Assembly: GCA_001818775.1 (NCBI GenBank)
Contig: MHKD01000019.1
Coordinates: forward strand, 47,802 to 60,763
Source: Candidatus Kerfeldbacteria bacterium RIFCSPHIGHO2_12_FULL_48_17
Lineage (GTDB): Bacteria > Patescibacteriota > Patescibacteriia > HO2-48-17
Length of the DNA: 12,962 bases
Reading direction: 5' to 3'
Shown here: positions 2,583 to 12,739 of the stretch, in pieces
Layout: every line of letters starts with the position of its first letter
Position numbering within the stretch: position 1 is the stretch's first letter
Notes under the pieces: model-generated
What the model saw: the letters and a program-made list of their open reading frames with translations, nothing else
Databases searched by the model: none
What the model was told of the DNA's origin: nothing
Position numbers and translations under genes: made by a program

Positions 2583-3227
2583 ATGAACAGAAGCTTTGCA
2601 CGCGGAGCGTTGATAACAGCCTTAATTTTCATTCCGGTGTTGGTGCTGGCTGCACTATTTATGGAGCAGTATTGGGCGGGTTCGGAATTTTTTCCGGGTT
2701 TGGACTTGGTTTTGTCCGGTTTGGCGTCGTTGGCCGTTCTCTTTGTCATTTTTGGTATAGTGGTGGTGCCCATCAATCATGTCGGCGTTATCGTTCTCAT
2801 GGGTCAGATTCAGAATTCGACACCCCTTCGTGAGGGTATATGCTGGGTACCGTTTTGGGCACAGGTGTTTTTTGAGTCGTTGGCGCCCAGAAAGGTGCAA
2901 ATTGACCCCATTGAATTCGAGTTTGAGGGGTCATTTTCCAAGCTTTCAAATATCCGCGTAGAGGTCAATGTGGATCCGGAGCGCGCGTTTCAATATTTCC
3001 GGCTTGATGAGAAAATTCGCGCCGAGCAGATAGATGCAAGGGTCTACAGTATTGCAAAGAAGACGCTGCAGCGCTTTATTGATGGTACTGATCGCCCCGG
3101 AACAAAAAGAAGAACCGTTCGGGAATTTAAGGCTGCCAGTGAAGACGCCAAGACTCGGCTTAATGAGGCTTTGAATGACGAGCTTTACGAGCATGGTGTC
3201 CAGGCTTGCGTTGTTTCTTTGGAGTAG
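2583..3227 (+). CDS. Short SPFH/band-7 (HflKC/flotillin-like) membrane protein, truncated relative to its paralog
   Basis: ATG 2583 follows AAGGAG (2571-2576) with a 6-nt spacer. The ORF track's GTG at 2535 has no SD. A short basic N-terminus is followed by two hydrophobic segments (ALITALIFIPVLVLAALF, LVLSGLASLAVLFVIFGIVVV). The core VPINHVGVIVLMGQIQN..EGICWVPFWAQV..IDPIEFEF..IRVEVNVDP..YFRLDE matches the band-7 pattern and aligns with the 4719 gene. It ends at HGVQACVVSLE*, where the paralog continues YGVLARVISLGDITLPDRIKQAIE. Confidence 0.75.
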   Translation: MNRSFARGALITALIFIPVLVLAALFMEQYWAGSEFFPGLDLVLSGLASLAVLFVIFGIVVVPINHVGVIVLMGQIQNSTPLREGICWVPFWAQVFFESLAPRKVQIDPIEFEFEGSFSKLSNIRVEVNVDPERAFQYFRLDEKIRAEQIDARVYSIAKKTLQRFIDGTDRPGTKRRTVREFKAASEDAKTRLNEALNDELYEHGVQACVVSLE

Positions 3228-3271
3228 CGTAGAACTTGATCATGTAACGGGAAAAAAGAAAGGAAATAGTT

Positions 3272-3892
3272 ATGTCGCAAAACAAATGGAAATATGGTGA
3301 TTTGCTCTTTGGGCAAGGGTGGTTGTCGGTCCTGGTGTGGGTGGTGTTGGTCCCTGTTTTTTGTTTTTTAGTCTCGGTTGCGATGGGGTATTTAGAGTAC
3401 CGCGATTGGGTCGCCACCAACCGTTTCCCGGAACCTGTTAAGGCGCCGATTGACCCAGCAGTGGTTGCTGAGCAGGTAAAGGAGGAAGCTAAACAAAGAG
3501 CCGAAAATCTTAAAAAAATCGAATCGCTGATCAAGCAGGCAGCGGCTTACGAGCGGCAGGCTAAGTACGCTGCAGGGGAAGAAAAGTTCTTCCTTTACCC
3601 TATTGTATGGAAGCATTGCCAGGGGCCTGTCTTAGGACCTGGTCTTTGGCATGTCATTATTTATAAGTGGGTATCAGACCGGCCATTCAAATTTGATCTT
3701 ACCAAGGGCCCGGCTGATGGCGAGGCTGAAGAATACACCAACTTCACCCTCGACACTATCGTAAAACCGGATGCCGGTCGCCAGATAGGTATTCCAGGCG
3801 GTTTTAGCGAGCCGGACTCGTTGTTTTTTTATCATTTAACAAATAAGGCACCGGGTCCATCTTGGGTGAGCGTGCCGCCGCAATGTCAATGA
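3272..3892 (+). CDS. Small membrane-anchored protein, paralog 1 of a conserved SPFH-associated family of unknown function
   Basis: ATG 3272 follows AAAGAAAGGAAA. It lies 44 nt downstream of the SPFH gene. The N-terminus MSQNKWKYGDLLFGQGWLSVLVWVVLVPVFCFLVSVAMGYL is a single TM anchor, followed by a charged helical linker. The C-terminal ~110 aa carry EEKFFLYPIVWKHCQGPVLGPGLWHVIIYKWV ... SLFFYHL..PGPSWVSVPPQCQ, shared with the ORFs at 3928 and 6352. Confidence 0.8.
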   Translation: MSQNKWKYGDLLFGQGWLSVLVWVVLVPVFCFLVSVAMGYLEYRDWVATNRFPEPVKAPIDPAVVAEQVKEEAKQRAENLKKIESLIKQAAAYERQAKYAAGEEKFFLYPIVWKHCQGPVLGPGLWHVIIYKWVSDRPFKFDLTKGPADGEAEEYTNFTLDTIVKPDAGRQIGIPGGFSEPDSLFFYHLTNKAPGPSWVSVPPQCQ

Positions 3893-3927
3893 GGGGTTTG
3901 TCAAAAAAAAATAGAAAGGAAAGTAGT

Positions 3928-4455
3928 ATGCCACAGAAGAAATGGAAGTATAGTGATTTGCTGTTTGGGCAAAGGTGGTTGTCGGTGGTGGCTTGGGTTG
4001 CGCTGGTGGTTTTTGGTTATTTGTTCCTGAGCCTGGTTGGCTCCTACATGATAAGTCGTGAAAACCGGGAAAAATCTGGCGAGATGGCAGCGACCATTGA
4101 TTCCAGTCAGAGGCAGAGGTTCGCGCCTGGCGAAGAGAAGTTTTTTAACTTCCCCTTTAGGTGGTATTCCTGTACTGGTGCCCATTTTGGGCCAGGCAGG
4201 TGGCATGTTGCCATCTATAAGTGGGTTTCGGCAGAGTCGATTTCTGCCTTCGAGCCTAAGGTATCAAAGAAAACCCATCTCAAATTGTATGTCGACAATA
4301 AGTTTCCACTCCTTGTCGACAACCGGGACGGGGTACTGCATCATATCCCACTTGGGCATGATGACCCAGATTCTTATTTTCTTTATGAAATAAAGAATTT
4401 GGGAAAGGACCCTGGTTGGGTTCAGCTCCCCCGGTCATGTCTCAAGGGGGATTAG
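3928..4455 (+). CDS. Small membrane-anchored protein, paralog 2 of the SPFH-associated family
   Basis: ATG 3928 follows GAAAGGAAAG (3914-3923). The TTG extension to 3862 in the ORF track has no SD and overlaps the previous stop. The N-terminus MPQKKWKYSDLLFGQRWLSVVAWVALVVFGYLFLSLVGSYM is a TM anchor. The C-terminus carries GEEKFFNFPFRWYSCTGAHFGPGRWHVAIYKWV ... SYFLYEIKNLGKDPGWVQLPRSC. Confidence 0.78.
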   Translation: MPQKKWKYSDLLFGQRWLSVVAWVALVVFGYLFLSLVGSYMISRENREKSGEMAATIDSSQRQRFAPGEEKFFNFPFRWYSCTGAHFGPGRWHVAIYKWVSAESISAFEPKVSKKTHLKLYVDNKFPLLVDNRDGVLHHIPLGHDDPDSYFLYEIKNLGKDPGWVQLPRSCLKGD

Positions 4456-4461
4456 CAAAAA

Positions 4462-4541
4462 CAAACAGAAAGGAGGTGATTCACTTATGCACATTTAAAA
4501 AAATCTGACAGCGTTTTACGAAGCGTCTGCTCAGATTTTTT
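4462..4541 (+). repeat. Copy B of the operon-end element: AAAGGAGGTGATT SD + mini-ORF ATG-CAC-ATT-TAA + intrinsic terminator
   Basis: caaacagaaAGGAGGTGAttcacttATGcacattTAAaaaaatctgacagcgttttacgaagcgtctgctcagattttttg. Roughly 95% identical to 6969-7049. SD at 4471-4479, with a 7-nt spacer to ATG 4487-4489 and stop at 4496-4498. Confidence 0.7.
4503..4541 (+). terminator. Rho-independent terminator ending the short-SPFH/partner operon
   Basis: Imperfect hairpin TCTGACAGCG-ttttacgaa-GCGTCTGCTCAGA followed by TTTTTTG (4535-4541). Confidence 0.65.
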
Positions 4542-4572
4542 GTTTATTTTTAGCCTTTTTTGGCGTTTTGTA

Positions 4573-4601
4573 TTGACTTTTTCTTTATTTTTCTGTATAA
4601 T
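4573..4601 (+). promoter_or_regulatory. Sigma-70-like promoter for the flotillin-like operon (TTGACT-17 nt-TATAAT)
   Basis: TTGACT at 4573-4578 and TATAAT at 4596-4601 (preceded by TG) are separated by a 17-nt spacer. The predicted TSS near 4608 starts the conserved leader cactttgttggggtaattgtgcc (4607-4629), leaving a leader of about 110 nt before ATG 4719. Confidence 0.6.
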
Positions 4602-4718
4602 ATAGCCACTTTGTTGGGGTAATTGTGCCGCAGCAAAGGGTTGTTTGACAACTTAAAATCAATAGAGGCCCACGCCGTGCGGCGGAGGAGCTGAATATAA
4701 AGAAAGGAGATTGATTTT

Positions 4719-6350
4719 ATGATTAAAATTAATCTTCATACAGAAAAGAGGAAGAAAATGAAAAAAAAGAACTCCGCCAAGGCCGAAACCCTGGGAGATT
4801 TTTTAAAGAGACTGTTTTTTGTTCTGCTGTGGGTGACAGGGTCGACGCTGGCTACTGTGCTTGTTTTCCTTCTTGTTAAGAAGGGATTAGTTTTTCTGCC
4901 AGAAGTTTCACTCCAAGATTTTTCGGGTGTCTGGTCTGTTCTGGGGATGGTGGGGCAGGGAGTTGCCTTGATAATTGGTGCCTTTGTTTTATTCGGTATA
5001 AGGCCCATACCCACCAATTATGTGGGGGTCACTACGCTTTTTGGAAAGATTCAAAACCGTGTCCTCCATGAAGGTATCAACTTGGTGTGGTTCTGGTATG
5101 ACTATCAGAAAGCCTCCACGGCGCCTCGGACTGTCAAGCTGGAACCGACGGAGTTTGAGTTTAGGGATGCACCTTCGAAGATTGCGGGGGTGCATATTCA
5201 GGTGCAGGTCAATCCAACTTGTCCGCAGGGTTACTTTCGTCTCACCGAGGAGACGCGGGAGACGGAAGTGGACGGGGCCGTGCGCAGTGTTGTGCAAAAA
5301 GTGCTGCAGAACCTGATTGACAATGCCGGGTCCCAGATGACCGTGGACGAGTTTAAGGGCGTCTCAGATAAAGTCACAAAGGAGCTGAGTAGAACGCTCA
5401 ACTCCCAAATTTCTCAGTATGGCGTCCTGGCGCGTGTTATTTCCCTTGGTGACATAACGTTGCCTGATAGAATCAAACAGGCAATTGAGTCGGTGAAGAC
5501 GCGTGAGAGGATGGCTGTGACTCTCAAGGCGCAGGAGGGTCATATTCGGAAGCTTGTTGAGGAGGGGCTTGATGCCAGGAGGATTCAACCGCCAGTCGAG
5601 GAAACTCCGGACCAGCTGCAAAAGCGGATAATTCCGTTGGTTCTTGAGAATCTTAAGGAGGCTGGGTATTTTCCCCCACTTCAGGAAACCCTAGAGCAGT
5701 TTGAGGCCCGTCTCAAATCTTTGGCATCGCAGCGCTTGAGGAACAGGGGAATTTCCGAGCCAACCAGAGAATCTGCAGAAGACCATAAAAAAAGGTTGGA
5801 AACAGATGTCCTGGCGACTTTGCAGCTGCAGGGTGTTGTGCGGCCCGTGGCTGAAGATCTGGCGACACGGGAAGCTCGTTTGGCCGGAATTGTCCGGGCC
5901 AGTTTTCTCATTTCTTCTACTGAGCCAGTGCCTCCAGCGGTCGCCAGTATTTTTTCTAAAGAAATGCAGACGCTGCGGCAGTTGGAAGAGCAGAAGTTCC
6001 TTGGCTATGCTGCCGCTTTTTCTAAGGAGCTGGAGCGACTTGAGGCTATTGACGCAGCAGTAGCCGACCGTTTTTATTCTGTTTTTGAGGAGGAAGTTGC
6101 GCGTTTGCGCAGTGCCCAGGAAAAGCAGATAAAAGATTTCAATGCCGCTTTTTCTAAGGAGCTGGGGGACCTAAAAGCAGAAGAACGGCGTCGCTATGAT
6201 GACGCCAAAAGAACTTATGATGAGCAGGTTGAGCGCTTGGAGGCTTCGTTCCAGCATGAGCAGGAAGAGGCTACCAAGCAGGAGTTGTATTCCAAAAATC
6301 CAAACTTCCTGTTGGGACTTGACCCCACAGGTAAAAAGAAAGGAAAATAA
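4719..6350 (+). CDS. Flotillin-like SPFH/band-7 membrane protein with long C-terminal coiled-coil carrying three FSKE(L/M) repeats
   Basis: ATG 4719 follows AAAGGAG (4703-4709) with a 9-nt spacer. An alternative ATG at 4758 follows GAGG. The basic N-terminus and hydrophobic segments (LFFVLLWVTGSTLATVLVFLLV, VWSVLGMVGQGVALIIGAFVLFGI) lead into the SPFH core NYVGVTTLFGKIQNRVLHEGINLVWFW..LEPTEFEF..IQVQVNP..YFRLTEE..QYGVLARVISLGDITLPDRIKQAIESVKTRERMA, which resembles HflK/HflC and flotillin. An E/A/R/Q-rich coiled coil follows, with ASIFSKEMQ, AAAFSKELERLEA and NAAFSKELGDLKA repeats. Confidence 0.85.
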   Translation: MIKINLHTEKRKKMKKKNSAKAETLGDFLKRLFFVLLWVTGSTLATVLVFLLVKKGLVFLPEVSLQDFSGVWSVLGMVGQGVALIIGAFVLFGIRPIPTNYVGVTTLFGKIQNRVLHEGINLVWFWYDYQKASTAPRTVKLEPTEFEFRDAPSKIAGVHIQVQVNPTCPQGYFRLTEETRETEVDGAVRSVVQKVLQNLIDNAGSQMTVDEFKGVSDKVTKELSRTLNSQISQYGVLARVISLGDITLPDRIKQAIESVKTRERMAVTLKAQEGHIRKLVEEGLDARRIQPPVEETPDQLQKRIIPLVLENLKEAGYFPPLQETLEQFEARLKSLASQRLRNRGISEPTRESAEDHKKRLETDVLATLQLQGVVRPVAEDLATREARLAGIVRASFLISSTEPVPPAVASIFSKEMQTLRQLEEQKFLGYAAAFSKELERLEAIDAAVADRFYSVFEEEVARLRSAQEKQIKDFNAAFSKELGDLKAEERRRYDDAKRTYDEQVERLEASFQHEQEEATKQELYSKNPNFLLGLDPTGKKKGK

Positions 6351-6351
6351 A

Positions 6352-6954
6352 ATGTATGATCTTTTGTTCAAATCGGGGATTGTGTCGGTGGGGGCGTGGA
6401 TTGCTCTGGTTGTTCTGGTGTATTTGGCCCTCAGTCTGACGGGATCATGTGTAAGGAGTTGCGAGATGCGGGCACAGCAGGACCCGAATACTTCTTATCC
6501 CACTCCTGTCACGACCGAGGAGCAGGTCAAGCGGGCCGAGAAGCTGGCCGCGCACCAGGCGGAAATTCTGAAAACGTTGCCGCAGACTATTGAAGAAGCG
6601 GCATCGTATCCCCGAAGCCAGGATTATCCGGCCCAGGAGAAATTGTTCCTCCTTTACCCCTTCAAGTGGGATCATTGCTGGGGGCCGCTCTTGGGCCCGG
6701 GGGTGTGGCACGTCGTAATTTATAAGTGGAAGGCTGCCGGGTCCCTGCAGATGGAAGATTTGAAGGAAGGGCCCGCTGTTGAAGATTACGAGCTTGTCTC
6801 CAACTTCCGGGTCAACACGGTGGTTGATAAGCGTGAGGGCAAGCAGGTGATTGTACCGGAGGGGTGGAAAGACAAAAACGCTCTTTATTTTTTTCAGCTG
6901 GAGCGCATAAGTGACTCGCTCGGCTGGGTCAGCGTTCCCCCTCAATGCCGCTGA
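6352..6954 (+). CDS. Small membrane-anchored protein, paralog 3 of the SPFH-associated family
   Basis: ATG 6352 follows AAGAAAGGAAA and sits 1 nt after the flotillin-like TAA (6348-6350), which suggests translational coupling. The N-terminus MYDLLFKSGIVSVGAWIALVVLVYLALSLTG is a TM anchor. The C-terminus carries QEKLFLLYPFKWDHCWGPLLGPGVWHVVIYKWK ... ALYFFQLERISDSLGWVSVPPQCR. The ORF-track extension to 6196 lies inside the upstream gene and has no SD. Confidence 0.8.
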   Translation: MYDLLFKSGIVSVGAWIALVVLVYLALSLTGSCVRSCEMRAQQDPNTSYPTPVTTEEQVKRAEKLAAHQAEILKTLPQTIEEAASYPRSQDYPAQEKLFLLYPFKWDHCWGPLLGPGVWHVVIYKWKAAGSLQMEDLKEGPAVEDYELVSNFRVNTVVDKREGKQVIVPEGWKDKNALYFFQLERISDSLGWVSVPPQCR

Positions 6955-7109: not shown

Positions 7110-10100
7110 ATGCTCAAAAGATATTTATCGTCAGTCTTCGCGGCGGTCATCATCGGCCTGATCGCGCTGCTGCCCCAGGTCACCCTCGCCACATTTGGCG
7201 ACACCACTACCTACGTCGGTAAAATCATCGGCGGTGACGGCAAGGACAAACTCAGCGCGTACCTCGACCAATCGGCTGATTTTGCCGTTGACAGCTCCGG
7301 TAATTTTTATCTGGCTGACACGCGCAACAACGTCATCCGCAAAATTTCATCGAGCGGCACCGTTTCCACCGTGGCCGGTACGGGTGCGTATGGCGATGTC
7401 ACCGGCAACAAAAGCGACGCTAAATTCGCTGGCCCGGAAGCACTGGCCCTCGACGGCAGCACCATCTTCGTGGCCGACACCGGCAACAACACCATCAAGA
7501 AAATTTCCGGCAGCACCGTCAGTACCCTGGTCAGCTCCGGCCTCAGCGGCCCCAAAGGCCTGTATGCCGACACATCGGCTGACATTCTCTACATCGCCGA
7601 CACCGGCAACAATAAAATCAAGAAAGTCGCTTTTGGAGGCGGCAGCGTCAGCACCGTGGCCAGCGGCCTCAACGCGCCCACCAAATTCACGAAAAATGGC
7701 GGCACCCTTTATGTGAATAACACCGGTGACAGCAAAATCAAATCGGTTGTCATTTCCAGCGGCGCAGTGGCGACTGTGGCCAGTGATTTTCTCGATCTCG
7801 GCGGCATAACGTACCACGAAGGTCACCTCTACAGTGTTGATGGTGATGGTCTGTTTGATTATCTGCAGAGCATTGATCCATCCACCGGTGCCAAATCTTT
7901 GCTGGCTGAAGACGGTTCCATGATTACCCTTAATACTTCTTCACAGGTCCTGGTGTATAACAGTAAGATTTACGTCCTCAACCGCGGCTCGAGCAGTATT
8001 TATAGATTTGACCTTGACGGCTCAAATCCTGTTCATTTTGCTGGCAAAGACCGTTTTGGCAATGATAACGGCACCGGAACCAACGCGCTCATCGGCGCTC
8101 CCAAAGATATCGTCATTTCCGATGATCGCGCCTTTATGTATCTGGCGGAAAACAACAAGATTCGCAAAATCACCCTAGACAGTGGCAAAGTTGAATCACT
8201 CATCGGCAATGCCGTGGATAATTACAAAGAAGGCAGAACCGGTTCGGACGGGCGTTTCAGTGATATCACCTCCATTGCCGTTTCACCGGATGGCGCCACA
8301 CTCTACGTCACTGATCGCAACAACAACCGTGTCCGCGGGATAGATATTGCTGCCAAAATTGATTTTCTTATTTCCGGCGCCGGAGAAATCAATTCCCACG
8401 GTGAATCCGATAACGGCTACCAGGAAGGTACCAAGTGTTTGGCTGAGTTTGACGCTGGTGTTTCCGGTTGCGCGTATTTCAATCGTCCCACGGGTATTGC
8501 GATTTCATCGGATGGGAAGTTTCTCTACGTCACCGATACGGGCAATCACCGCATCCGCCGCGTGCGCGTGAGTGATGGGCAAACGACACTTATCGCCGGT
8601 TCAGGTGCTGCGGGTTTCACCAATGGCGTCGGTTCGGCGGCAAAATTCAATTCACCGTACAGTGTCACCATCGACGCGGCCGGTGATTTCCTGTATGTCG
8701 CTGACAAGGGCAATCACGCCATCCGTAAAATTGACCTGGCAACCCGTGAAGTCACCACCCTTACGGGCACCGGTTCCTTTGGCTATAATGATGCCACCTT
8801 TGATAAGGCGGTGTTTTCTTTCCCCGAGTACATTGAATTCGGTGGCGATGGTCACCTGTATGTTTCGGAAGTCGGCAGTCAGCGTATTCGCCAGCTTGAT
8901 CTGGAAAACGAAGTGACGAAGCTTGTGGCCGGTTCCGGTGATCGTGGTTTTCTGAACGGCAACCGCAGTGATGCGGAGTTTAATAACCCCAAGGGCATGG
9001 CTGTTGATGCGCCGTCAGACACTATTTATGTTACCGATAACCAAAATGATCTTATCCGTAAAATGGACATTGAGGGTGAAGCGCCATTCACCGAACTCTC
9101 ACCGACCGTGACCCGTGTTGATCCCAATACCAAAACCCTCGCTGACCGCGGCGATCAGACAATTCCCATTGATCTGTACGGTTCGAATATTCGTCATGGC
9201 GCCATAGCCTATGTCGGCGCGTTTCAGGCATTGAAAACATATGTCACTGATTATGGCGCGGTGCTGGAGTTGCCGTTTGGCTTGCTTGATCCGGGGCATT
9301 ATGACATTACCGTGAAGAATATCGATTCACAGTCGTACACCTTGCTGAAAGGTTTTCGCGTGACACGGAAAGACGGTGTATTGCCCGGTACCTATTATAA
9401 ATATGATGGGTCGGTGGTTGGTGGCGACGGCGTGGCTCCGTTAAGCGCTAACTTTTTTCCGTATGATTCGGCTCTGCGCGGCGGGTTTAACAGTTCCACG
9501 TGTGATGTGAATAAAGACGGGGTTGATGAAATCATTGTGGGTACGGGTGTGGGTTTTGGTCCACAGGTCAAGGTCTTTACCAAGTCAGGGGATTTGCTGT
9601 TCAGCTTTTTTGGCTTTGCGGAGACGTTACGCGCTGGTGTGCGTACTTCGTGCGGTGACCTTGACAAGGACGGTAAACCGGAAATTGTGGTGACGGCCGG
9701 ACCCGGAGGCAGACCGCATGTGCGTATTTTTGACAACGAAGGCAATCTCAAGCATCCGGGTTGGTTTGCGCTGGATGGAAAGTTCAAGGGCGGAACGTAT
9801 ACCACGATTGGCGATGTGAACGGCGATAAGGTTGGTGATATTATTGTCAGCGCCGGCAAGGGCGGCGGGCCCCACATTACCGTTCACAGGATGGACGGTC
9901 GGTTGCTGGCCACATTCTTTGCCTACAGCAACACATTCCGTGCCGGTATTCAGCCGGTGGCGATGGATTTTGATAATGACGGTCGGGATGAAATTGTGGT
10001 GGTGCCCGATACCGGTACATCGCATGTGCAGACATTCAGCATTCAGCCGAATGATATCAGGTTGTTGAATCCCGGTTTCTTCGCCTTTGGCACGACTGAC

Positions 10101-10364
10101 GCCAATGGTTTCAATATTGCCGGCGGTGACATTGATGGTGACGGCAAAGATGAGATCATTGTGGGTACCGGTCCGAACAATATAGCGCGCGTGCGTGTCT
10201 TTAACAAAGATGGTTCGGTGATACTCAAAGATGAGCAGGTGTTTTCAAGTTCGTATAAGGGGGGAGTGAACGTCTCGGCCGGGGATGTTGATGGGGACGG
10301 TGACGATGACATTATTGTTTTGCCGCGTTCCAGCGGAGTTCCTGATCTGCGGGTTCTGAAGTAA
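7110..10364 (+). CDS. Secreted 1084-aa NHL-repeat beta-propeller / IPT(TIG) / FG-GAP-repeat protein
   Basis: Signal peptide MLKRYLSSVFAAVIIGLIALLPQVTLATFG. At least 8 NHL-type blades (YLADTRNNVIRKI, FVADTGNNTIKKI, YIADTGNNKIKKV, YVTDRNNNRVRGI, YVTDTGNHRIRRV, YVADKGNHAIRKI, YVSEVGSQRIRQL, YVTDNQNDLIRKM). An Ig-like IPT segment (TVTRVDPNTKT...YDITVKNIDSQSYTLLKGFRVT). Six FG-GAP/VCBS repeats (CDVNKDGVDEIIVGTG..PQVKVF, GDLDKDGKPEIVVTAGPGGRPHVRIF, GDVNGDKVGDIIVSAGKGGGPHITVH, MDFDNDGRDEIVVVPDTGTSHVQTF, GDIDGDGKDEIIVGTGPNNIARVRVF, GDVDGDGDDDIIVLPRS). Codon usage is strongly biased toward C-ending codons. Confidence 0.85.
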   Translation: MLKRYLSSVFAAVIIGLIALLPQVTLATFGDTTTYVGKIIGGDGKDKLSAYLDQSADFAVDSSGNFYLADTRNNVIRKISSSGTVSTVAGTGAYGDVTGNKSDAKFAGPEALALDGSTIFVADTGNNTIKKISGSTVSTLVSSGLSGPKGLYADTSADILYIADTGNNKIKKVAFGGGSVSTVASGLNAPTKFTKNGGTLYVNNTGDSKIKSVVISSGAVATVASDFLDLGGITYHEGHLYSVDGDGLFDYLQSIDPSTGAKSLLAEDGSMITLNTSSQVLVYNSKIYVLNRGSSSIYRFDLDGSNPVHFAGKDRFGNDNGTGTNALIGAPKDIVISDDRAFMYLAENNKIRKITLDSGKVESLIGNAVDNYKEGRTGSDGRFSDITSIAVSPDGATLYVTDRNNNRVRGIDIAAKIDFLISGAGEINSHGESDNGYQEGTKCLAEFDAGVSGCAYFNRPTGIAISSDGKFLYVTDTGNHRIRRVRVSDGQTTLIAGSGAAGFTNGVGSAAKFNSPYSVTIDAAGDFLYVADKGNHAIRKIDLATREVTTLTGTGSFGYNDATFDKAVFSFPEYIEFGGDGHLYVSEVGSQRIRQLDLENEVTKLVAGSGDRGFLNGNRSDAEFNNPKGMAVDAPSDTIYVTDNQNDLIRKMDIEGEAPFTELSPTVTRVDPNTKTLADRGDQTIPIDLYGSNIRHGAIAYVGAFQALKTYVTDYGAVLELPFGLLDPGHYDITVKNIDSQSYTLLKGFRVTRKDGVLPGTYYKYDGSVVGGDGVAPLSANFFPYDSALRGGFNSSTCDVNKDGVDEIIVGTGVGFGPQVKVFTKSGDLLFSFFGFAETLRAGVRTSCGDLDKDGKPEIVVTAGPGGRPHVRIFDNEGNLKHPGWFALDGKFKGGTYTTIGDVNGDKVGDIIVSAGKGGGPHITVHRMDGRLLATFFAYSNTFRAGIQPVAMDFDNDGRDEIVVVPDTGTSHVQTFSIQPNDIRLLNPGFFAFGTTDANGFNIAGGDIDGDGKDEIIVGTGPNNIARVRVFNKDGSVILKDEQVFSSSYKGGVNVSAGDVDGDGDDDIIVLPRSSGVPDLRVLK

Positions 10365-10395
10365 TCACTGGCTTACGCGTTTGGCGCGTTTCAAT

Positions 10396-10428
10396 AAAAA
10401 AAACGCCACTTTTTACGGTGGCGTTTTT
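10396..10428. terminator. Bidirectional Rho-independent terminator between convergent genes
   Basis: AAAAAAAACGCCAC-tttttacg-GTGGCGTTTTT has an A-run upstream and a T-run downstream. It serves the + strand NHL gene (stop 10364) and the - strand histone-fold gene (stop 10445). A smaller hairpin ACGCGtttggCGCGT sits at 10369-10383. Confidence 0.7.
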
Positions 10429-10444
10429 ATATCTGGAGAAAGTT

Positions 10445-10621
10445 TTACAAATCCTGGCCCTTGACGGTGGTGCGCTTGTTGCCCTGGGTGCGCTTGCAGG
10501 CATCGTCGAGCACGCCCATCACCTTTTTATTAAGAGCTTCGAGAACCTCGGAAGAAGTTTTGCACTTCTTGGATTTAATATAGGCTTTTACTTTTGAGCC
10601 TACAATTAACAGGTCAGCCAT
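10445..10621 (-). CDS. Bacterial histone-fold protein (HMf-like / DUF1931-type singlet histone), 58 aa, absent from the ORF track
   Basis: Reverse-complement ORF ATG(10619-10621)..TAA(10445-10447). It translates to MADLLIVGSKVKAYIKSKKCKTSSEVLEALNKKVMGVLDDACKRTQGNKRTTVKGQDL. This fits the histone-fold pattern: L-I----I-K, an S-E---L first helix, and the C-terminal A-KR--GNKRTTVKG-D-L matching the A--HAGRKTIKAEDI motif of archaeal HMfB. No SD precedes the ATG. Confidence 0.6.
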   Translation of the reverse strand: MADLLIVGSKVKAYIKSKKCKTSSEVLEALNKKVMGVLDDACKRTQGNKRTTVKGQDL

Positions 10622-10731
10622 GAGTTTCTTATTAATAATTAAGGCTTACAAATCCGCGGGCACTTTTTTCGCGGCACTTTAGGGGGGCAAATGCTCAGAT
10701 TTGTGAGTCTTAGGTCTTAATATATCGGTTT

Positions 10732-11316
10732 TTATTTTTTAACGCAGCGATTGTTTCGGCACAGACAACTGGGTATGGCATCCTTTTCCTGCTGTGTGCA
10801 AATGGCGTTGCACGATACACGGTTTATCTGGCTGTATACTTCTTCATTCAGACAGGAATAGCCGCAGCTGCAGTTGCTGAAAAGGGGCGTGCAGTCAGCG
10901 TCGGTCTCACAGCTGAGGGCGGATGGGGTTTTATTTCCTCCTGTGTCAGTTTGAGTATTTACGTTTTGATTGGCGCTGTTTTCGGTTTCTGTGCCGCTCG
11001 ATGCATCTATACTAGCACCGTTCACGTTTTTTGTTAAGCTGCTCTCGGTCTTTTGCGGGTTGATGGGTTTTTTTGTCGAGATAATGCCGCTCATCACAAT
11101 CACAAGCTCTAAACACAGAAAAACGAAAACAAGAACGAACCCAAGTGCCAGATTGATGGCTTTGGCGTATCTATTTTTATCAGGATTTCCCTGTGCTGTT
11201 TTTTTTCGACCGCGTTTTGTTTTTTTGCCCGTGTTGTTATGGCTTTTTACCATACCTTTTATTTTCGTTGTTATTGTACCATTATATTTCTCCTTGTTCA
11301 ATTTTTTGTTTTCCAT
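10732..11316 (-). CDS. Lysine-rich N-terminus / single-TM / Ser-Thr-Asn-rich linker / 12-cysteine C-terminal domain protein, unknown function
   Basis: 194-aa ORF. The N-terminus (KKTKRGRKKTAQGNPDKNRYAK) is strongly basic, followed by the TM segment AINLALGFVLVFVFLCLELVIVMSGII and a low-complexity linker (TESSLTKNVNGASIDASSGTETENSANQNVNTQTDTGGNKT). The C-terminus is SCETDADCTPLFSNCSCGYSCLNEEVYSQINRVSCNAICTQQEKDAIPSCLCRNNRCVKK. The start is uncertain: M1 overlaps the PduO gene by 35 nt, and an alternative M22 (ATG 11251-11253) does not. No SD precedes either. Confidence 0.55.
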   Translation of the reverse strand: MENKKLNKEKYNGTITTKIKGMVKSHNNTGKKTKRGRKKTAQGNPDKNRYAKAINLALGFVLVFVFLCLELVIVMSGIISTKKPINPQKTESSLTKNVNGASIDASSGTETENSANQNVNTQTDTGGNKTPSALSCETDADCTPLFSNCSCGYSCLNEEVYSQINRVSCNAICTQQEKDAIPSCLCRNNRCVKK

Positions 11317-11851
11317 TCCAGGTATGCTCGGTTTGATTGTAATGCTTGTTGAGTATCCGGGCGAGAATAAAAAACCAATCAGAAAGTCTGTTCATATATT
11401 TGAGGATTTCCGGATCGATTTCTTCCTGTTGATCAACGCTGATGATGCTTCTTTCAGCCCGGCGGCATATGGTGCGGCAGATATGGGCAACGGCGGCTGA
11501 TCGGTCGCCACCCGGCAGGATAAAATGGGCGAGTGGAGGCAGATCGTGTTGCCAGGCATCAATCTCTTGTTCGAGTGTTTGAACATGGTGTGGTTGTATG
11601 TGGGGCGTATGCAGTGGTGAGTCCTTTGGCGTGGCGAGTTCTGCCCCAATAATGAACAGATTTTCTTGCACTGCCATCAGTTTTTTGTTGATGCCATCAT
11701 CATTTATTCTCGAAATAAGAAAACCAATGAACGAATTGAGTTCATCCACTTCACCGTACGCGACCAGGCGCGGATGGTTTTTCCGCACGCGTTGGTTGCC
11801 AAACAATCCCGTTTCACCCTGATCGCCGGTTTTGGTGTAAATTTTTGTCAT
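11282..11851 (-). CDS. PduO-type ATP:cob(I)alamin adenosyltransferase
   Basis: N-terminal MTKIYTKTGDQGETGLFGNQRVRKNHPRLVAYGEVDELNSFIGFL is the signature motif of the PduO/MMAB/EutT-like adenosyltransferase family (KIYTKTGDxGxT...R..K...R..AYG..DELNS). The 189-aa length fits the family. Confidence 0.85.
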   Translation of the reverse strand: MTKIYTKTGDQGETGLFGNQRVRKNHPRLVAYGEVDELNSFIGFLISRINDDGINKKLMAVQENLFIIGAELATPKDSPLHTPHIQPHHVQTLEQEIDAWQHDLPPLAHFILPGGDRSAAVAHICRTICRRAERSIISVDQQEEIDPEILKYMNRLSDWFFILARILNKHYNQTEHTWNGKQKIEQGEI

Positions 11852-11884
11852 ATGCCGTATATTAGACAGTTACTTAGTACATGT

Positions 11885-12739
11885 TCATAATGTCTTGACG
11901 GTTTCCATTGTCGGTGTTGCCCCATCTTTCACCGTCGCCGCGTCTGCTGCGGCTGCCGTTCGGTTTTCCGTGTCTTTTTTCTTGGCCATGGCGTAGTGTA
12001 TGATGGCGTGCACCGCCTGGGCGCCGGAAACAAGTCTTGGCCCGGGACGGTTCAAAAGCGAGTCATCAATGCGGTAGACATTTTCCGCGCGCACCGCTCG
12101 CATGTGGTTCCAATTTTTTCTTTCCTTTATACTCCCGACATCACTCCGGTTGGCACGACCGCACCAATGGGCCACGATGATTTCCGGATTGAACACGAGT
12201 ATCTGTTGATCACTCACTTTTTTGCTTGGCTGTCCGGGTTCCACGAATTTTGTTCTCCCACCAGCGAGGCTGATGATTTCCGGTACCCAATTCCCGCCGG
12301 CCATGAAAGGTTTTGACCATTCCTCGGCGTACACACTCGGTCGTTCCTCGTGATTTTTCGAACAGACACTGATTTTCTCGAATTCCGTTTTCATGGAATC
12401 TGTCAGGGCTTGCGCTTCCGTTTGCTTACCGACGAGTTCGCCGAGCTCAATTATGGATGTGAATACATCCGTCAATGTTTTTGCCTGAAAATGGTAGATC
12501 TCCCCGCGGCCGTTATAGTTGTGGAGTTCTTTGGGGAAATAATACGAGGTGAGGATGATGTCAGGTTCAAGCGCGGCGATTTTGGCCGTGTCGGTCCCAG
12601 TCCAGGTGCCGATTTTTTCTTTGGCGGCGACTCCGGCGGGAAAGTCGCACAGTTTCGTCACGGCAATCGTTTCTGCCTGACAGCCAAGCGCAAAAAGGAT
12701 TTCCGTGTTACTTGGGGCCAGTGAAACGATTTTCAGCAT
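11885..12739 (-). CDS. BtuF-like (class III periplasmic-binding-protein fold) cobalamin/siderophore-type substrate-binding protein, no signal peptide
   Basis: MLKIVSLAPSNTEILFALG....IVAVT..CDFP...........W....D...IAALEPDIIL parallels E. coli BtuF (RVITLSPANTELAFAAG...GVS.YSDYP...W.G...E.I.ALKPDLVI). It sits next to the PduO-type adenosyltransferase. The start lies 21 nt after the upstream gene's stop, and in-frame stops upstream rule out an N-terminal leader peptide. Confidence 0.7.
   Translation of the reverse strand: MLKIVSLAPSNTEILFALGCQAETIAVTKLCDFPAGVAAKEKIGTWTGTDTAKIAALEPDIILTSYYFPKELHNYNGRGEIYHFQAKTLTDVFTSIIELGELVGKQTEAQALTDSMKTEFEKISVCSKNHEERPSVYAEEWSKPFMAGGNWVPEIISLAGGRTKFVEPGQPSKKVSDQQILVFNPEIIVAHWCGRANRSDVGSIKERKNWNHMRAVRAENVYRIDDSLLNRPGPRLVSGAQAVHAIIHYAMAKKKDTENRTAAAADAATVKDGATPTMETVKTL

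What the first reader, a model, noticed from the sequence alone, without database searches (positions are those of the whole stretch)
10445..10621. Unannotated 58-aa histone-fold gene (bacterial histone-like) below the ORF-track length cut-off
The reverse strand encodes MADLLIVGSKVKAYIKSKKCKTSSEVLEALNKKVMGVLDDACKRTQGNKRTTVKGQDL, flanked by a clean bidirectional terminator. Helix lengths and the C-terminal (G/N)(R/K)(K/R)T(I/V)K..D(I/L) signature match archaeal HMf histones and the recently characterised bacterial singlet histones, such as the Bdellovibrio/Leptospira-type DUF1931 proteins. Bacterial histones are rare and were only recently shown to be major nucleoid proteins. Finding one here hints at the host lineage and at a nucleoid-associated function. 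It has no SD and a short AT-rich upstream region, consistent with leaderless or high-level constitutive expression.
Basis: partly seen in the sequence, partly recalled or inferred. Interest (0 to 1): 0.7.

Follow-up and report, generated by a model that had tools for sequence, protein, structure and literature searches.

The report
Tail-less face-to-face bacterial histone gene
This 58-codon gene encodes a true histone-fold DNA-packaging protein of the recently described bacterial "face-to-face" type (closest solved relative: Leptospira HLp), here in an uncultured Kerfeldbacteria-like ultra-small (CPR) bacterium, so it is a new member of a known family and not a new kind of protein.

Summary
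The ORF at 10445-10621 (-) is real and encodes the stated 58-aa peptide. It has a histone fold of the alpha3-truncated family, face-to-face (FtF) subfamily. Evidence: phmmer hits the HLp crystal structure from Leptospira perolatii (9QT0) at E=3e-15. A family profile reaches HLp (8e-28), archaeal HTkC, Bdellovibrio HBb, and then archaeal histones and NF-YB. A confident AF2 model (pLDDT 91) superposes on HLp at TM 0.92-0.95 and rmsd 0.8 A. All FtF sequence discriminators are present: R44, N48 and R50-x-T52-xxxx-D57. The protein is not a Pfam DUF1931 member (DUF1931 proper are pseudodimers), not HMf-like in helix lengths, and not HBb-type. The host is a Kerfeldbacteria-like CPR/Patescibacteria bacterium, judged by conserved synteny with a Kerfeldbacteria MAG. 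The bidirectional terminator and the missing SD are confirmed; leaderless expression is untested. The likely mechanism, inferred by homology, is dimer to torus-shaped tetramer, with sequence-nonspecific wrapping of about 50-60 bp. CPR singlet histones already appear in published supplementary tables but are not discussed in the papers read.

The parts
10445..10621 (-). CDS of a 58-aa alpha3-truncated (FtF-type) histone, stop codon included; 6.3 kDa, pI 9.75, net charge about +6.5
   Evidence: ORF; PDB sequence and profile matches to HLp, HTkC and HBb; AF2 pLDDT 91.4; TM 0.92-0.95 to 9QT0; charge
10571..10600 (-). alpha1 helix (residues 8-17), with S9-K10 at its N-terminal end and K12, K16. These equal HLp S14, K15, K17, K21, which contact the DNA backbone
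   Evidence: DSSP H8-17; HLp DNA contacts and residue mapping; S9 171/192, K10 168/192, K12 152/192, K16 136/192 in the family
10481..10552 (-). alpha2 helix (residues 24-47). It carries the dimer-interface hydrophobics L30, V34, V37, C42 and the dimer-dimer residue R44
   Evidence: H24-47; mapping to HLp L35, L39, L42, L47, R49
10478..10492 (-). R44...N48 (K-R-T-Q-G-N), the two residues that distinguish FtF (tetramer-forming) from 'bacterial dimer' histones
   Evidence: Schwab 2024: R48/N52 of the FtF HMM; absent in bacterial dimers; R 170/192, N 169/192; alignment (HBb has S and D at these positions)
10451..10474 (-). RxTxxxxD motif (R50-T51-T52-V53-K54-G55-Q56-D57). It comprises loop L2 with the DNA-contacting T51/T52, the R50-D57 'RD clamp', and the one-turn alpha3 (residues 55-57)
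   Evidence: definitions; HHH at 55-57; R50 186/192, T52 180/192, D57 185/192
10391..10433 (.). Bidirectional intrinsic terminator shared with the convergent gene 7110-10364(+): GC-core hairpin CGCCAC/GTGGCG with an A-run on one side and a T-run on the other
   Evidence: terminator scan, - strand 10428..10399; fold -15.8 and -17.9 kcal/mol, z -4.05 and -3.3
10622..10731 (-). 110-nt upstream intergenic region. It has an AT-rich, SD-less leader, with ATTAAT at 10636..10631 (-15 to -10 from the ATG) conserved in position in the Kerfeldbacteria ortholog. An imperfect hairpin lies further upstream. Promoter not identified
   Evidence: sequence and comparison with L007/L008; no sigma70-type site; upstream fold z -3.0

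Best explanation
The gene encodes a minimal, tail-less histone of the alpha3-truncated family, face-to-face (FtF) subfamily. It is the ortholog-level relative of Leptospira HLp in a Kerfeldbacteria-like CPR/Patescibacteria bacterium.

Shown here: it has the alpha1-L1-alpha2-L2-short-alpha3 histone fold, it is strongly basic, and it retains the residues that in HLp contact DNA, clamp loop L2 and join two dimers.

Inferred by homology: two chains form a head-to-tail handshake dimer through alpha2. Two dimers close into a torus-shaped tetramer through R44, N48, R50 and the C-terminal turn. The continuous basic rim binds the DNA backbone without sequence specificity through S9/K10, K12/K16, T22 and T51/T52. 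About 50-60 bp are wrapped per tetramer, compacting the nucleoid.

The gene is a monocistronic unit with its own terminator and an SD-less, AT-rich leader. That is compatible with, but does not prove, abundant constitutive expression as a nucleoid-associated protein.
For: Sequence: phmmer to PDB 9QT0 (HLp) gives E=3.1e-15 over residues 3-57, against about 1e-3 for HTkC and HBb. The 87-member family profile reaches HLp at 8e-28, HTkC at 1.5e-16, HBb at 4e-16, and then HmvA, archaeal histone A, NF-YB and HMfA.

Structure: AF2 run without templates gives pLDDT 91.4, with helices 8-17, 24-47 and 55-57. Foldseek gives TM 0.92/0.95, rmsd 0.8 A and 57% identity to the HLp crystal structure. HBb, HTkC and eukaryotic H3 follow.

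Discriminating residues: R44, N48, R50, T52 and D57 are present and are the most conserved positions of the family. They are the residues Schwab 2024 and Hu 2025 assign to the FtF dimer-dimer interface and the RxTxxxxD/RD clamp. Of 25 named HLp functional residues, 16 are identical and most others are conservative. Net charge is about +6.5 and pI 9.75.

Real gene under selection: 1,146 family clusters; 19 synonymous versus 17 nonsynonymous codon changes against the syntenic ortholog.

Chromosomal, not mobile: no phage match. The convergent 1084-aa neighbour is conserved (66% identity) next to the ortholog in a Kerfeldbacteria MAG.

Mechanism for HLp (tetramer in solution, about 60 bp wrapped, nucleoid reorganisation in E. 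coli): PMC12701072.
Against:
- Three HLp interface or contact positions differ: S52->G47, T61->Q56 and M26->K21.
- The protein lacks the N-terminal tail present in Leptospira FtF histones.
- Neither Pfam nor NCBIfam recognises the protein.
- Abundance and any role as the main nucleoid protein are untested. Whether the genome also encodes HU, IHF or another histone is unknown. The related Kerfeldbacteria MAG has a second, 113-aa histone-fold protein in Hocher 2023's table.
Confidence: 0.8

Rival explanations
1. It is a histone of the alpha3 family that functions like Bdellovibrio HBb. It stays a dimer and bends or coats DNA instead of forming a wrapping tetramer.
For: Same fold and size as HBb (TM about 0.9). 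The family profile hits HBb at 4e-16. Three HLp tetramer-interface or neighbouring positions are substituted (G47, Q56, K21). Oligomeric state was not tested here.
Against: HBb-type histones lack the R and N that mediate dimer-dimer contacts; HBb has S and D at those positions (alignment). The window protein has R44 and N48. Its similarity to HLp (58 bits, 57% identity) far exceeds that to HBb (21 bits, about 33%).
Confidence: 0.13
2. It is a histone-fold protein with a non-chromatin role, for example a protein-protein adaptor or a specific transcription factor. In that respect it would resemble DUF1931 pseudodimers or NF-Y-like factors.
For: Histone folds are used for non-DNA roles, and DUF1931 proteins lack DNA-binding residues. 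35 of 87 relatives give weak DUF1931 hits. No functional partner genes are linked to it.
Against: It is a singlet, not a pseudodimer. It gives no DUF1931 hit. The DNA-contact residues S9, K10, K12, K16, T22, T51 and T52 are conserved, and net charge is +6.5. Its nearest characterised relative binds DNA nonspecifically.
Confidence: 0.05
3. It is a chance ORF, or a gene carried by a mobile element or phage, and not a host chromatin gene.
For: It is very short, has no SD and no recognisable promoter. Phage histones exist within the alpha3 family.
Against: 1,146 homologous clusters, a confident fold, and synonymous-biased divergence. No phage hit by tblastn. Composition is ordinary. Synteny with a Kerfeldbacteria chromosome contig of 320 kb is conserved.
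Confidence: 0.02

Closest known systems
HLp, the FtF histone of Leptospira perolatii (PDB 9QT0/9QT1/9QT2; Hu et al. 2025, PMC12701072) and its L. interrogans ortholog
   Same: Same alpha3-truncated histone fold (rmsd 0.8 A, 57% identity). Same R/N/R dimer-dimer triad, RD clamp and RxTxxxxD motif. Most DNA-backbone contact residues are the same. Single-domain protein of about 60 aa.
   Different: No N-terminal tail; HLp has about 7 disordered residues and other Leptospira proteins about 15 acidic/polar ones. More basic core (+6.5 vs +1.8). Substitutions S52->G, T61->Q, M26->K, F25/L47->Cys/Cys. SD-less leader, whereas the Leptospiraceae genes have AAGGAG. Different neighbourhood (no SMC/MAP/DUF350). 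The host is a CPR bacterium.
HTkC of Thermococcus kodakarensis and archaeal FtF histones (PDB 9F2C; Schwab et al. 2024, PMC11390915)
   Same: Tail-less, about 58-59 aa, torus-tetramer family, same conserved R, N, R-x-T-xxxx-D positions. TM about 0.89.
   Different: Only about 32% identity. The window protein clusters with bacterial FtF sequences (55-71% identity to CPR, Planctomycetota and Leptospiraceae versus 34-38% to archaeal loci).
HBb (Bd0055) of Bdellovibrio bacteriovorus, 'bacterial dimer' histones (PDB 8CMP, 8FVX, 9EZZ)
   Same: Alpha3-truncated fold, similar size, RD clamp, alpha1 lysines.
   Different: HBb lacks the R and N needed for dimer-dimer contacts, stays dimeric, and bends or coats DNA. 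About 33% identity.
Archaeal nucleosomal histones HMfA/HMfB (Pfam PF00808)
   Same: Histone fold; RxTxxxxD motif; handshake dimer.
   Different: HMf has a 10-residue alpha3 and an alpha2 that is 4-5 residues longer, forms hypernucleosomes through a four-helix bundle, and is recognised by PF00808. The window protein is not.
DUF1931 (PF09123) pseudodimeric histones (Thermus 1WWI, Aquifex 1R4V)
   Same: Distantly related histone folds; weak sub-threshold Pfam cross-hits in relatives.
   Different: DUF1931 proteins are about 140-aa tandem doublets lacking DNA-binding residues. The window protein is a singlet that has them, and it gives no DUF1931 hit.

Membership tests
alpha3-truncated histones (Schwab et al. 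2024) | Histone fold alpha1-L1-alpha2-L2-alpha3 | tested here: met
   AF2 pLDDT 91.4 with helices 8-17, 24-47 and 55-57. Foldseek top hits are all histones, TM 0.86-0.95.
alpha3-truncated histones (Schwab et al. 2024) | Alpha3 reduced to 3-4 residues and alpha2 4-5 residues shorter than in nucleosomal histones | tested here: met
   Alpha3 is 3 residues at the C-terminus and alpha2 is 24 residues. Criterion.
alpha3-truncated histones (Schwab et al. 2024) | RxTxxxxD motif (RD clamp) | tested here: met
   R50-T51-T52-V53-K54-G55-Q56-D57. R50 186/192, T52 180/192 and D57 185/192 in the family.
Face-to-face (FtF) histones | Conserved dimer-dimer residues R48 and N52 of the FtF HMM (HLp R49, N53) | tested here: met
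   R44 and N48 are present. They are near-invariant among relatives.
Face-to-face (FtF) histones | Closest sequence and structure relationship to experimentally verified FtF members | tested here: met
   HLp E=3.1e-15 versus about 1e-3 for others. TM 0.92-0.95 and rmsd 0.8 A.
Face-to-face (FtF) histones | Torus-shaped homotetramer (the feature the category is defined by) | not testable with these tools
   Only single-chain AF2 was available; no multimer prediction or biophysics. Inferred from conserved interface residues, with three substitutions (G47, Q56, K21).
Face-to-face (FtF) histones | Sequence-nonspecific DNA binding and wrapping of about 50-60 bp | not testable with these tools
   Supported only indirectly: conserved DNA-contact residues and net charge +6.5.
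Bacterial dimer histones (HBb type) | Absence of the FtF R and N interface residues; sequence clustering with HBb | tested here: not met
   The window protein has R44/N48, where HBb has S/D (alignment). 21 bits to HBb versus 58 bits to HLp.
DUF1931 (Pfam PF09123) pseudodimeric histones | Match to PF09123; two fused histone folds (about 140 aa); DNA-binding residues lost | tested here: not met
   No PF09123 hit even at E<=10. Single 58-aa fold. DNA-contact residues retained. Definition.
Archaeal nucleosomal histones / CBFD_NFYB_HMF (PF00808) | Match to PF00808; full-length alpha3 forming a four-helix-bundle tetramer interface | tested here: not met
   No PF00808 hit. Alpha3 is a single turn. 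The family profile reaches HMfA only at E about 0.015.
HU/IHF 'histone-like' proteins (PF00216) | Bac_DNA_binding fold | tested here: not met
   No such Pfam hit. The fold is all-alpha histone. 'Histone-like' in the finding's title should read 'histone'.

The most novel reading that the evidence does not exclude
Tail-less FtF histones may be a vertically inherited and possibly principal chromatin protein in several CPR/Patescibacteria lineages (Kerfeld-, Falkow-, Andersenbacteria and others). That would mean some ultra-small, episymbiotic bacteria package their reduced genomes with histone tetramers. The main texts of the bacterial-histone papers read here do not discuss this. It would bear on whether bacterial FtF histones are ancient or were exchanged with co-occurring DPANN or other archaea.
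Probability: 0.3. Interest if true: 0.55.

Novelty: new member of a known kind. Interest (0 to 1): 0.3.

Why it matters
Bacterial histones occur in under 2% of genomes and were characterised only in 2023-2025. Each new, clearly classified member refines where and how histone-based chromatin exists outside archaea and eukaryotes. This one places an HLp-type (tetramer/wrapping) histone in a Kerfeldbacteria-like CPR genome, in a conserved chromosomal position. It also shows that the closest relatives form a tail-less, very basic group found mostly in Patescibacteria MAGs. In practical terms, the family is missed by Pfam and NCBIfam, and the protein carries no name in any public source. Annotation pipelines will therefore keep labelling such genes hypothetical or dropping them. 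It does not change the concept of bacterial histones.

Tried and rejected
1. Direct Pfam and NCBIfam scans of the protein gave no histone family, only a chance MC6 hit at E=0.22. Classification therefore rests on PDB sequence and profile searches and on structure.
2. The first AF2 run, with a 6-sequence alignment, gave only pLDDT 65.6. It was superseded by the 87-sequence run.
3. The genome scan with the broad alignment A2 failed because no stretch was conserved enough. It was repeated with the tighter A3, whose pattern is biased toward close relatives, so the taxon tally is not an unbiased census.
4. Phage origin: tblastn against 50,697 phage records found nothing.
5. Structured RNA or riboswitch in the window: no Rfam hit at gathering thresholds.
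6. Promoter: no sigma70-type site in 10200-10900. Manual comparison with L007/L008 showed only a positionally conserved ATTAAT at -15..-10. I could not assign -35/-10 boxes or a TSS, so 'leaderless' stays speculative.
7. Cys20/Cys42, invariant among the nearest relatives, were considered as a possible disulfide or metal site. These positions are generally hydrophobic (M/L/C/F and I/V/A/C). Co-occurrence is only modestly enriched (OR 4.2, p=1e-4, not corrected for phylogeny). They are most simply core packing residues replacing HLp F25/L47.
8. Functional linkage to neighbours: only the convergent 1084-aa NHL/FG-GAP gene is conserved next to the ortholog. The upstream 173-aa gene is not. No SMC/MAP/DUF350 linkage as in Leptospira.
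9. The second Kerfeldbacteria histone-fold protein (OGY84332.1, 113 aa) is not encoded in the window or in any held locus.
10. P0159, a 678-aa ATPase in P0005's cluster, is an unrelated clustering artefact.

Full report
OBSERVATION. It is convergent with a 1084-codon gene (7110-10364, +). Between the two stop codons lies a GC-core hairpin (10399-10428) flanked by an A-run and a T-run. A terminator scan calls it on the - strand. It folds at -15.8 kcal/mol (z -4.05) on the - strand and -17.9 kcal/mol (z -3.3) on the + strand, with a U-tract after the stem in both directions. The 'clean bidirectional terminator' is therefore real.

The 21 nt before the ATG (ttaattattaataagaaactc) contain no Shine-Dalgarno sequence. 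Several other genes in the window have AAGGAG-type sites, so 'no SD' is also correct. Other genes here lack an SD too, so this is not unique to the histone gene.

IS IT A GENE? Yes.
- The identical protein is called on 13 metagenome contigs. The six I fetched are identical at the DNA level, so this is one population seen in several samples.
- An exhaustive HMMER search with a profile of the closest relatives finds 1,146 clusters (50% identity) at E<=1e-3 and 133 at E<=1e-10.
- Against the syntenic ortholog (71% amino-acid identity), 19 codons differ synonymously and 17 nonsynonymously. That indicates purifying selection.
- No public source gives the protein or its close relatives a name.

WHAT IS IT? 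Pfam and NCBIfam do not recognise it. Other evidence is unambiguous.
- Sequence against solved structures: phmmer hits HLp of Leptospira perolatii (9QT0) at E=3.1e-15 over residues 3-57. Weaker hits go to HTkC of Thermococcus (9F2C) and HBb of Bdellovibrio (8FVX/8CMP).
- Family profile: a profile of 87 diverse single-domain relatives (A2) hits HLp at 8e-28, HTkC at 1.5e-16 and HBb at 4e-16. It then reaches HmvA, archaeal histone A, NF-YB, HMfA and even H4.
- Pfam on relatives: members give weak, mostly sub-threshold hits to DUF1931 (35/87), CBFD_NFYB_HMF (28/87) and core Histone (12/87).
- Structure: AF2 with the shallow alignment was mediocre (pLDDT 65.6). With A2 it is confident (pLDDT 91.4): alpha1 8-17, alpha2 24-47 and a one-turn alpha3 at 55-57. 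Foldseek against the PDB puts HLp first (TM 0.92/0.95, rmsd 0.8 A, 57% identity), followed by HBb, HTkC and eukaryotic H3.

The alpha1-L1-alpha2-L2-alpha3 arrangement is therefore present, in its alpha3-truncated form.

WHICH HISTONE FAMILY? Schwab et al. 2024 (PMC11390915) define the alpha3 histones by a 3-4-residue alpha3 and a shortened alpha2. Within them, the face-to-face (FtF) category is defined by a torus tetramer. Its sequence signature is the RxTxxxxD motif plus R48 and N52 (HMM numbering) at the dimer-dimer interface. 'Bacterial dimer' histones (HBb type) lack that R and N.

Hu et al. 2025 (PMC12701072) solved HLp. They showed tetramers in solution, about 60 bp of DNA wrapped, and nucleoid reorganisation in E. 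coli. They named three sets of residues:
- dimer-dimer network: R49, S52, N53, R55, T61, F63
- RD clamp: R55-D62
- DNA contacts: A13, S14, K15, K17, K21, T27, G29, T56, T57

HLp residue n+5 equals window residue n. The window protein has R44, N48, R50, T52 and D57, and these are the most conserved positions across 192 family domains (170-186 of 192). Of the 25 named HLp residues, 16 are identical and most others are conservative. The exceptions are S52->G47, T61->Q56 and M26->K21. HBb has S and D where the window protein has R44 and N48 (alignment).

The protein therefore meets every sequence and structure criterion for an FtF histone. It fails those for the HBb-type, for DUF1931 (pseudodimeric, about 140 aa, DNA-binding residues lost) and for HMf-type nucleosomal histones. 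The tetramer itself and DNA wrapping could not be tested with the tools available.

HOST AND CONTEXT. A scan of species-representative genomes found 50 loci. By record title they are:
- 15 Patescibacteria/CPR
- 12 Planctomycetota
- 9 Leptospiraceae
- 5 uncultured 'Pseudomonadota/Gammaproteobacteria'
- 2 Actinomycetota
- 1 Myxococcales
- 4 unclassified bacteria
- 2 archaea

The search pattern came from close relatives, so this tally is biased. Some 'uncultured Saccharibacteria' labels are coarse.

The best match (71%) is in Candidatus Kerfeldbacteria RIFCSPLOWO2_02_FULL_42_19, on a 320-kb contig. There the same 1084-aa NHL/FG-GAP protein (66% identity) sits convergent to the histone gene. The periplasmic-binding-protein (58%) and cobalamin adenosyltransferase (49%) genes are nearby. 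The window thus comes from a Kerfeldbacteria-like member of the Parcubacteria/Patescibacteria group, and the histone gene is in a conserved chromosomal position. There is no phage match and no compositional anomaly.

The CPR-type proteins have no N-terminal tail. Leptospiraceae carry about 15 acidic/polar residues, and Planctomycetota and many others carry Lys-rich tails. The window protein's core is more basic than HLp's (+6.5 vs +1.8).

Most homologs have a strong AAGGAGGTG SD. The window, Kerfeldbacteria and Falkowbacteria genes do not. The window and Kerfeldbacteria genes share ATTAAT at exactly -15 to -10. This could be a -10-like element giving a very short leader, or simply an AT-rich unstructured leader. 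No sigma70-type promoter was detected, so leaderless expression remains a hypothesis.

MECHANISM (shown versus inferred).
- Shown: the fold, the conserved interface, clamp and DNA-contact residues, basicity, monocistronic organisation with its own terminator, and selection.
- Inferred from HLp and HTkC: handshake dimer, then torus tetramer via R44/N48/R50 and the C-terminal turn, then sequence-nonspecific backbone binding around the basic rim, then wrapping of about 50-60 bp and nucleoid compaction.
- Unknown: cellular abundance, whether HU or IHF are present, and the effect of the missing tail.

KNOWN OR NEW? The family and mechanism are known (2023-2025 literature). The supplementary tables of Hocher et al. 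2023 already list alpha3-type singlets from Andersenbacteria and a Patescibacteria MAG. For the very Kerfeldbacteria MAG above, the part of the table held here lists only a different 113-aa histone-fold protein. None of the main texts read mention CPR/Patescibacteria. No paper in the library combines 'Patescibacteria' with 'histone fold', or with 'histone' and 'nucleoid'.

The finding is therefore a new, well-classified member of a known kind. Its taxonomic context is mildly novel and not discussed in the papers read here.

VERDICT. Corrections: it is an FtF/HLp-type alpha3 histone, not DUF1931 and not HMf-like in helix lengths. The host is a Kerfeldbacteria-like CPR bacterium. The expression claims are untested. 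Interest is modest (0.3).

Noticed in passing
relatives P0007, P0008, P0009, P0010, P0013, P0014 and others: 41 of the 150 best family hits are 110 aa or longer (most about 115-150 aa), and 33 of these show two tandem alpha3/FtF-type histone folds. Both halves keep S-K...R..N.R.T....D. They fall below Pfam's DUF1931 threshold, and such fused FtF doublets are not described in the main text of Schwab 2024.
   Followed up: partly
relatives P0057, P0153, P0116, P0073, P0029 and others; loci L020-L022, L039: Many bacterial FtF singlets carry Lys/Arg-rich N-terminal tails (up to about 40 aa, 55-59% K/R, e.g. (AKKAP)n). The window protein and its CPR relatives have none.
   Followed up: partly
window 10631-10636 (-); L007 at the same offset upstream of 6001: ATTAAT lies at exactly -15 to -10 from the ATG in both the window and the Kerfeldbacteria ortholog. 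Both lack an SD, whereas most homologs have AAGGAGGTG. It may be a -10-like element implying a very short leader.
   Followed up: partly
window 10650-10705 (-): An imperfect long-range hairpin (ACAAAUCUG...CGGAUUUGU) lies in the 110-nt spacer between the upstream 173-aa gene and the histone gene (fold z -3.0). It could terminate the upstream gene or be 5'-UTR structure. The terminator scan did not call it.
   Followed up: no
window residues C20 and C42 of the histone (nt 10562-10564 and 10496-10498, -): Both cysteines are invariant among the six closest relatives and replace HLp F25/L47. Their co-occurrence across the family is modestly enriched (OR 4.2, p=1e-4, not corrected for phylogeny). 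They are probably core packing residues; a redox role is not excluded.
   Followed up: partly
Hocher 2023 supplementary table; not in window: The Kerfeldbacteria MAG syntenic with this window is listed with a different 113-aa histone-fold protein (OGY84332.1). The lineage may therefore encode two histone-fold proteins. No copy exists in the window or held loci.
   Followed up: partly
window 2583-6954 (+): A cluster of two SPFH/Band-7 genes (214 and 530 aa by public gene calls) is interleaved with three small genes that have no Pfam match (206, 188 and 200 aa). It is preceded by a 721-aa protein with no Pfam match (146-2311).
   Followed up: no
window 7110-10364 (+): A 1084-aa NHL-repeat plus FG-GAP-repeat protein (beta-propeller-rich, likely surface or extracellular) is 66% identical to the Kerfeldbacteria neighbour. 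It is the only gene whose adjacency to the histone gene is conserved.
   Followed up: partly
window 10732-12739 (-): A periplasmic-binding-protein gene (Peripla_BP_2), a PduO-type cobalamin adenosyltransferase gene and an unknown 173-aa gene lie in one orientation upstream of the histone gene. This suggests corrinoid salvage in a CPR genome. No cobalamin riboswitch was detected, but the window ends only 223 nt upstream of the first gene.
   Followed up: no
protein database cluster of P0005: A 678-aa Bacteroidales 'AAA family ATPase' (P0159, MDP1621200.1) is listed in the same 90% cluster as the 55-aa histone P0005. The sequences are unrelated, so this is a clustering artefact.
   Followed up: yes
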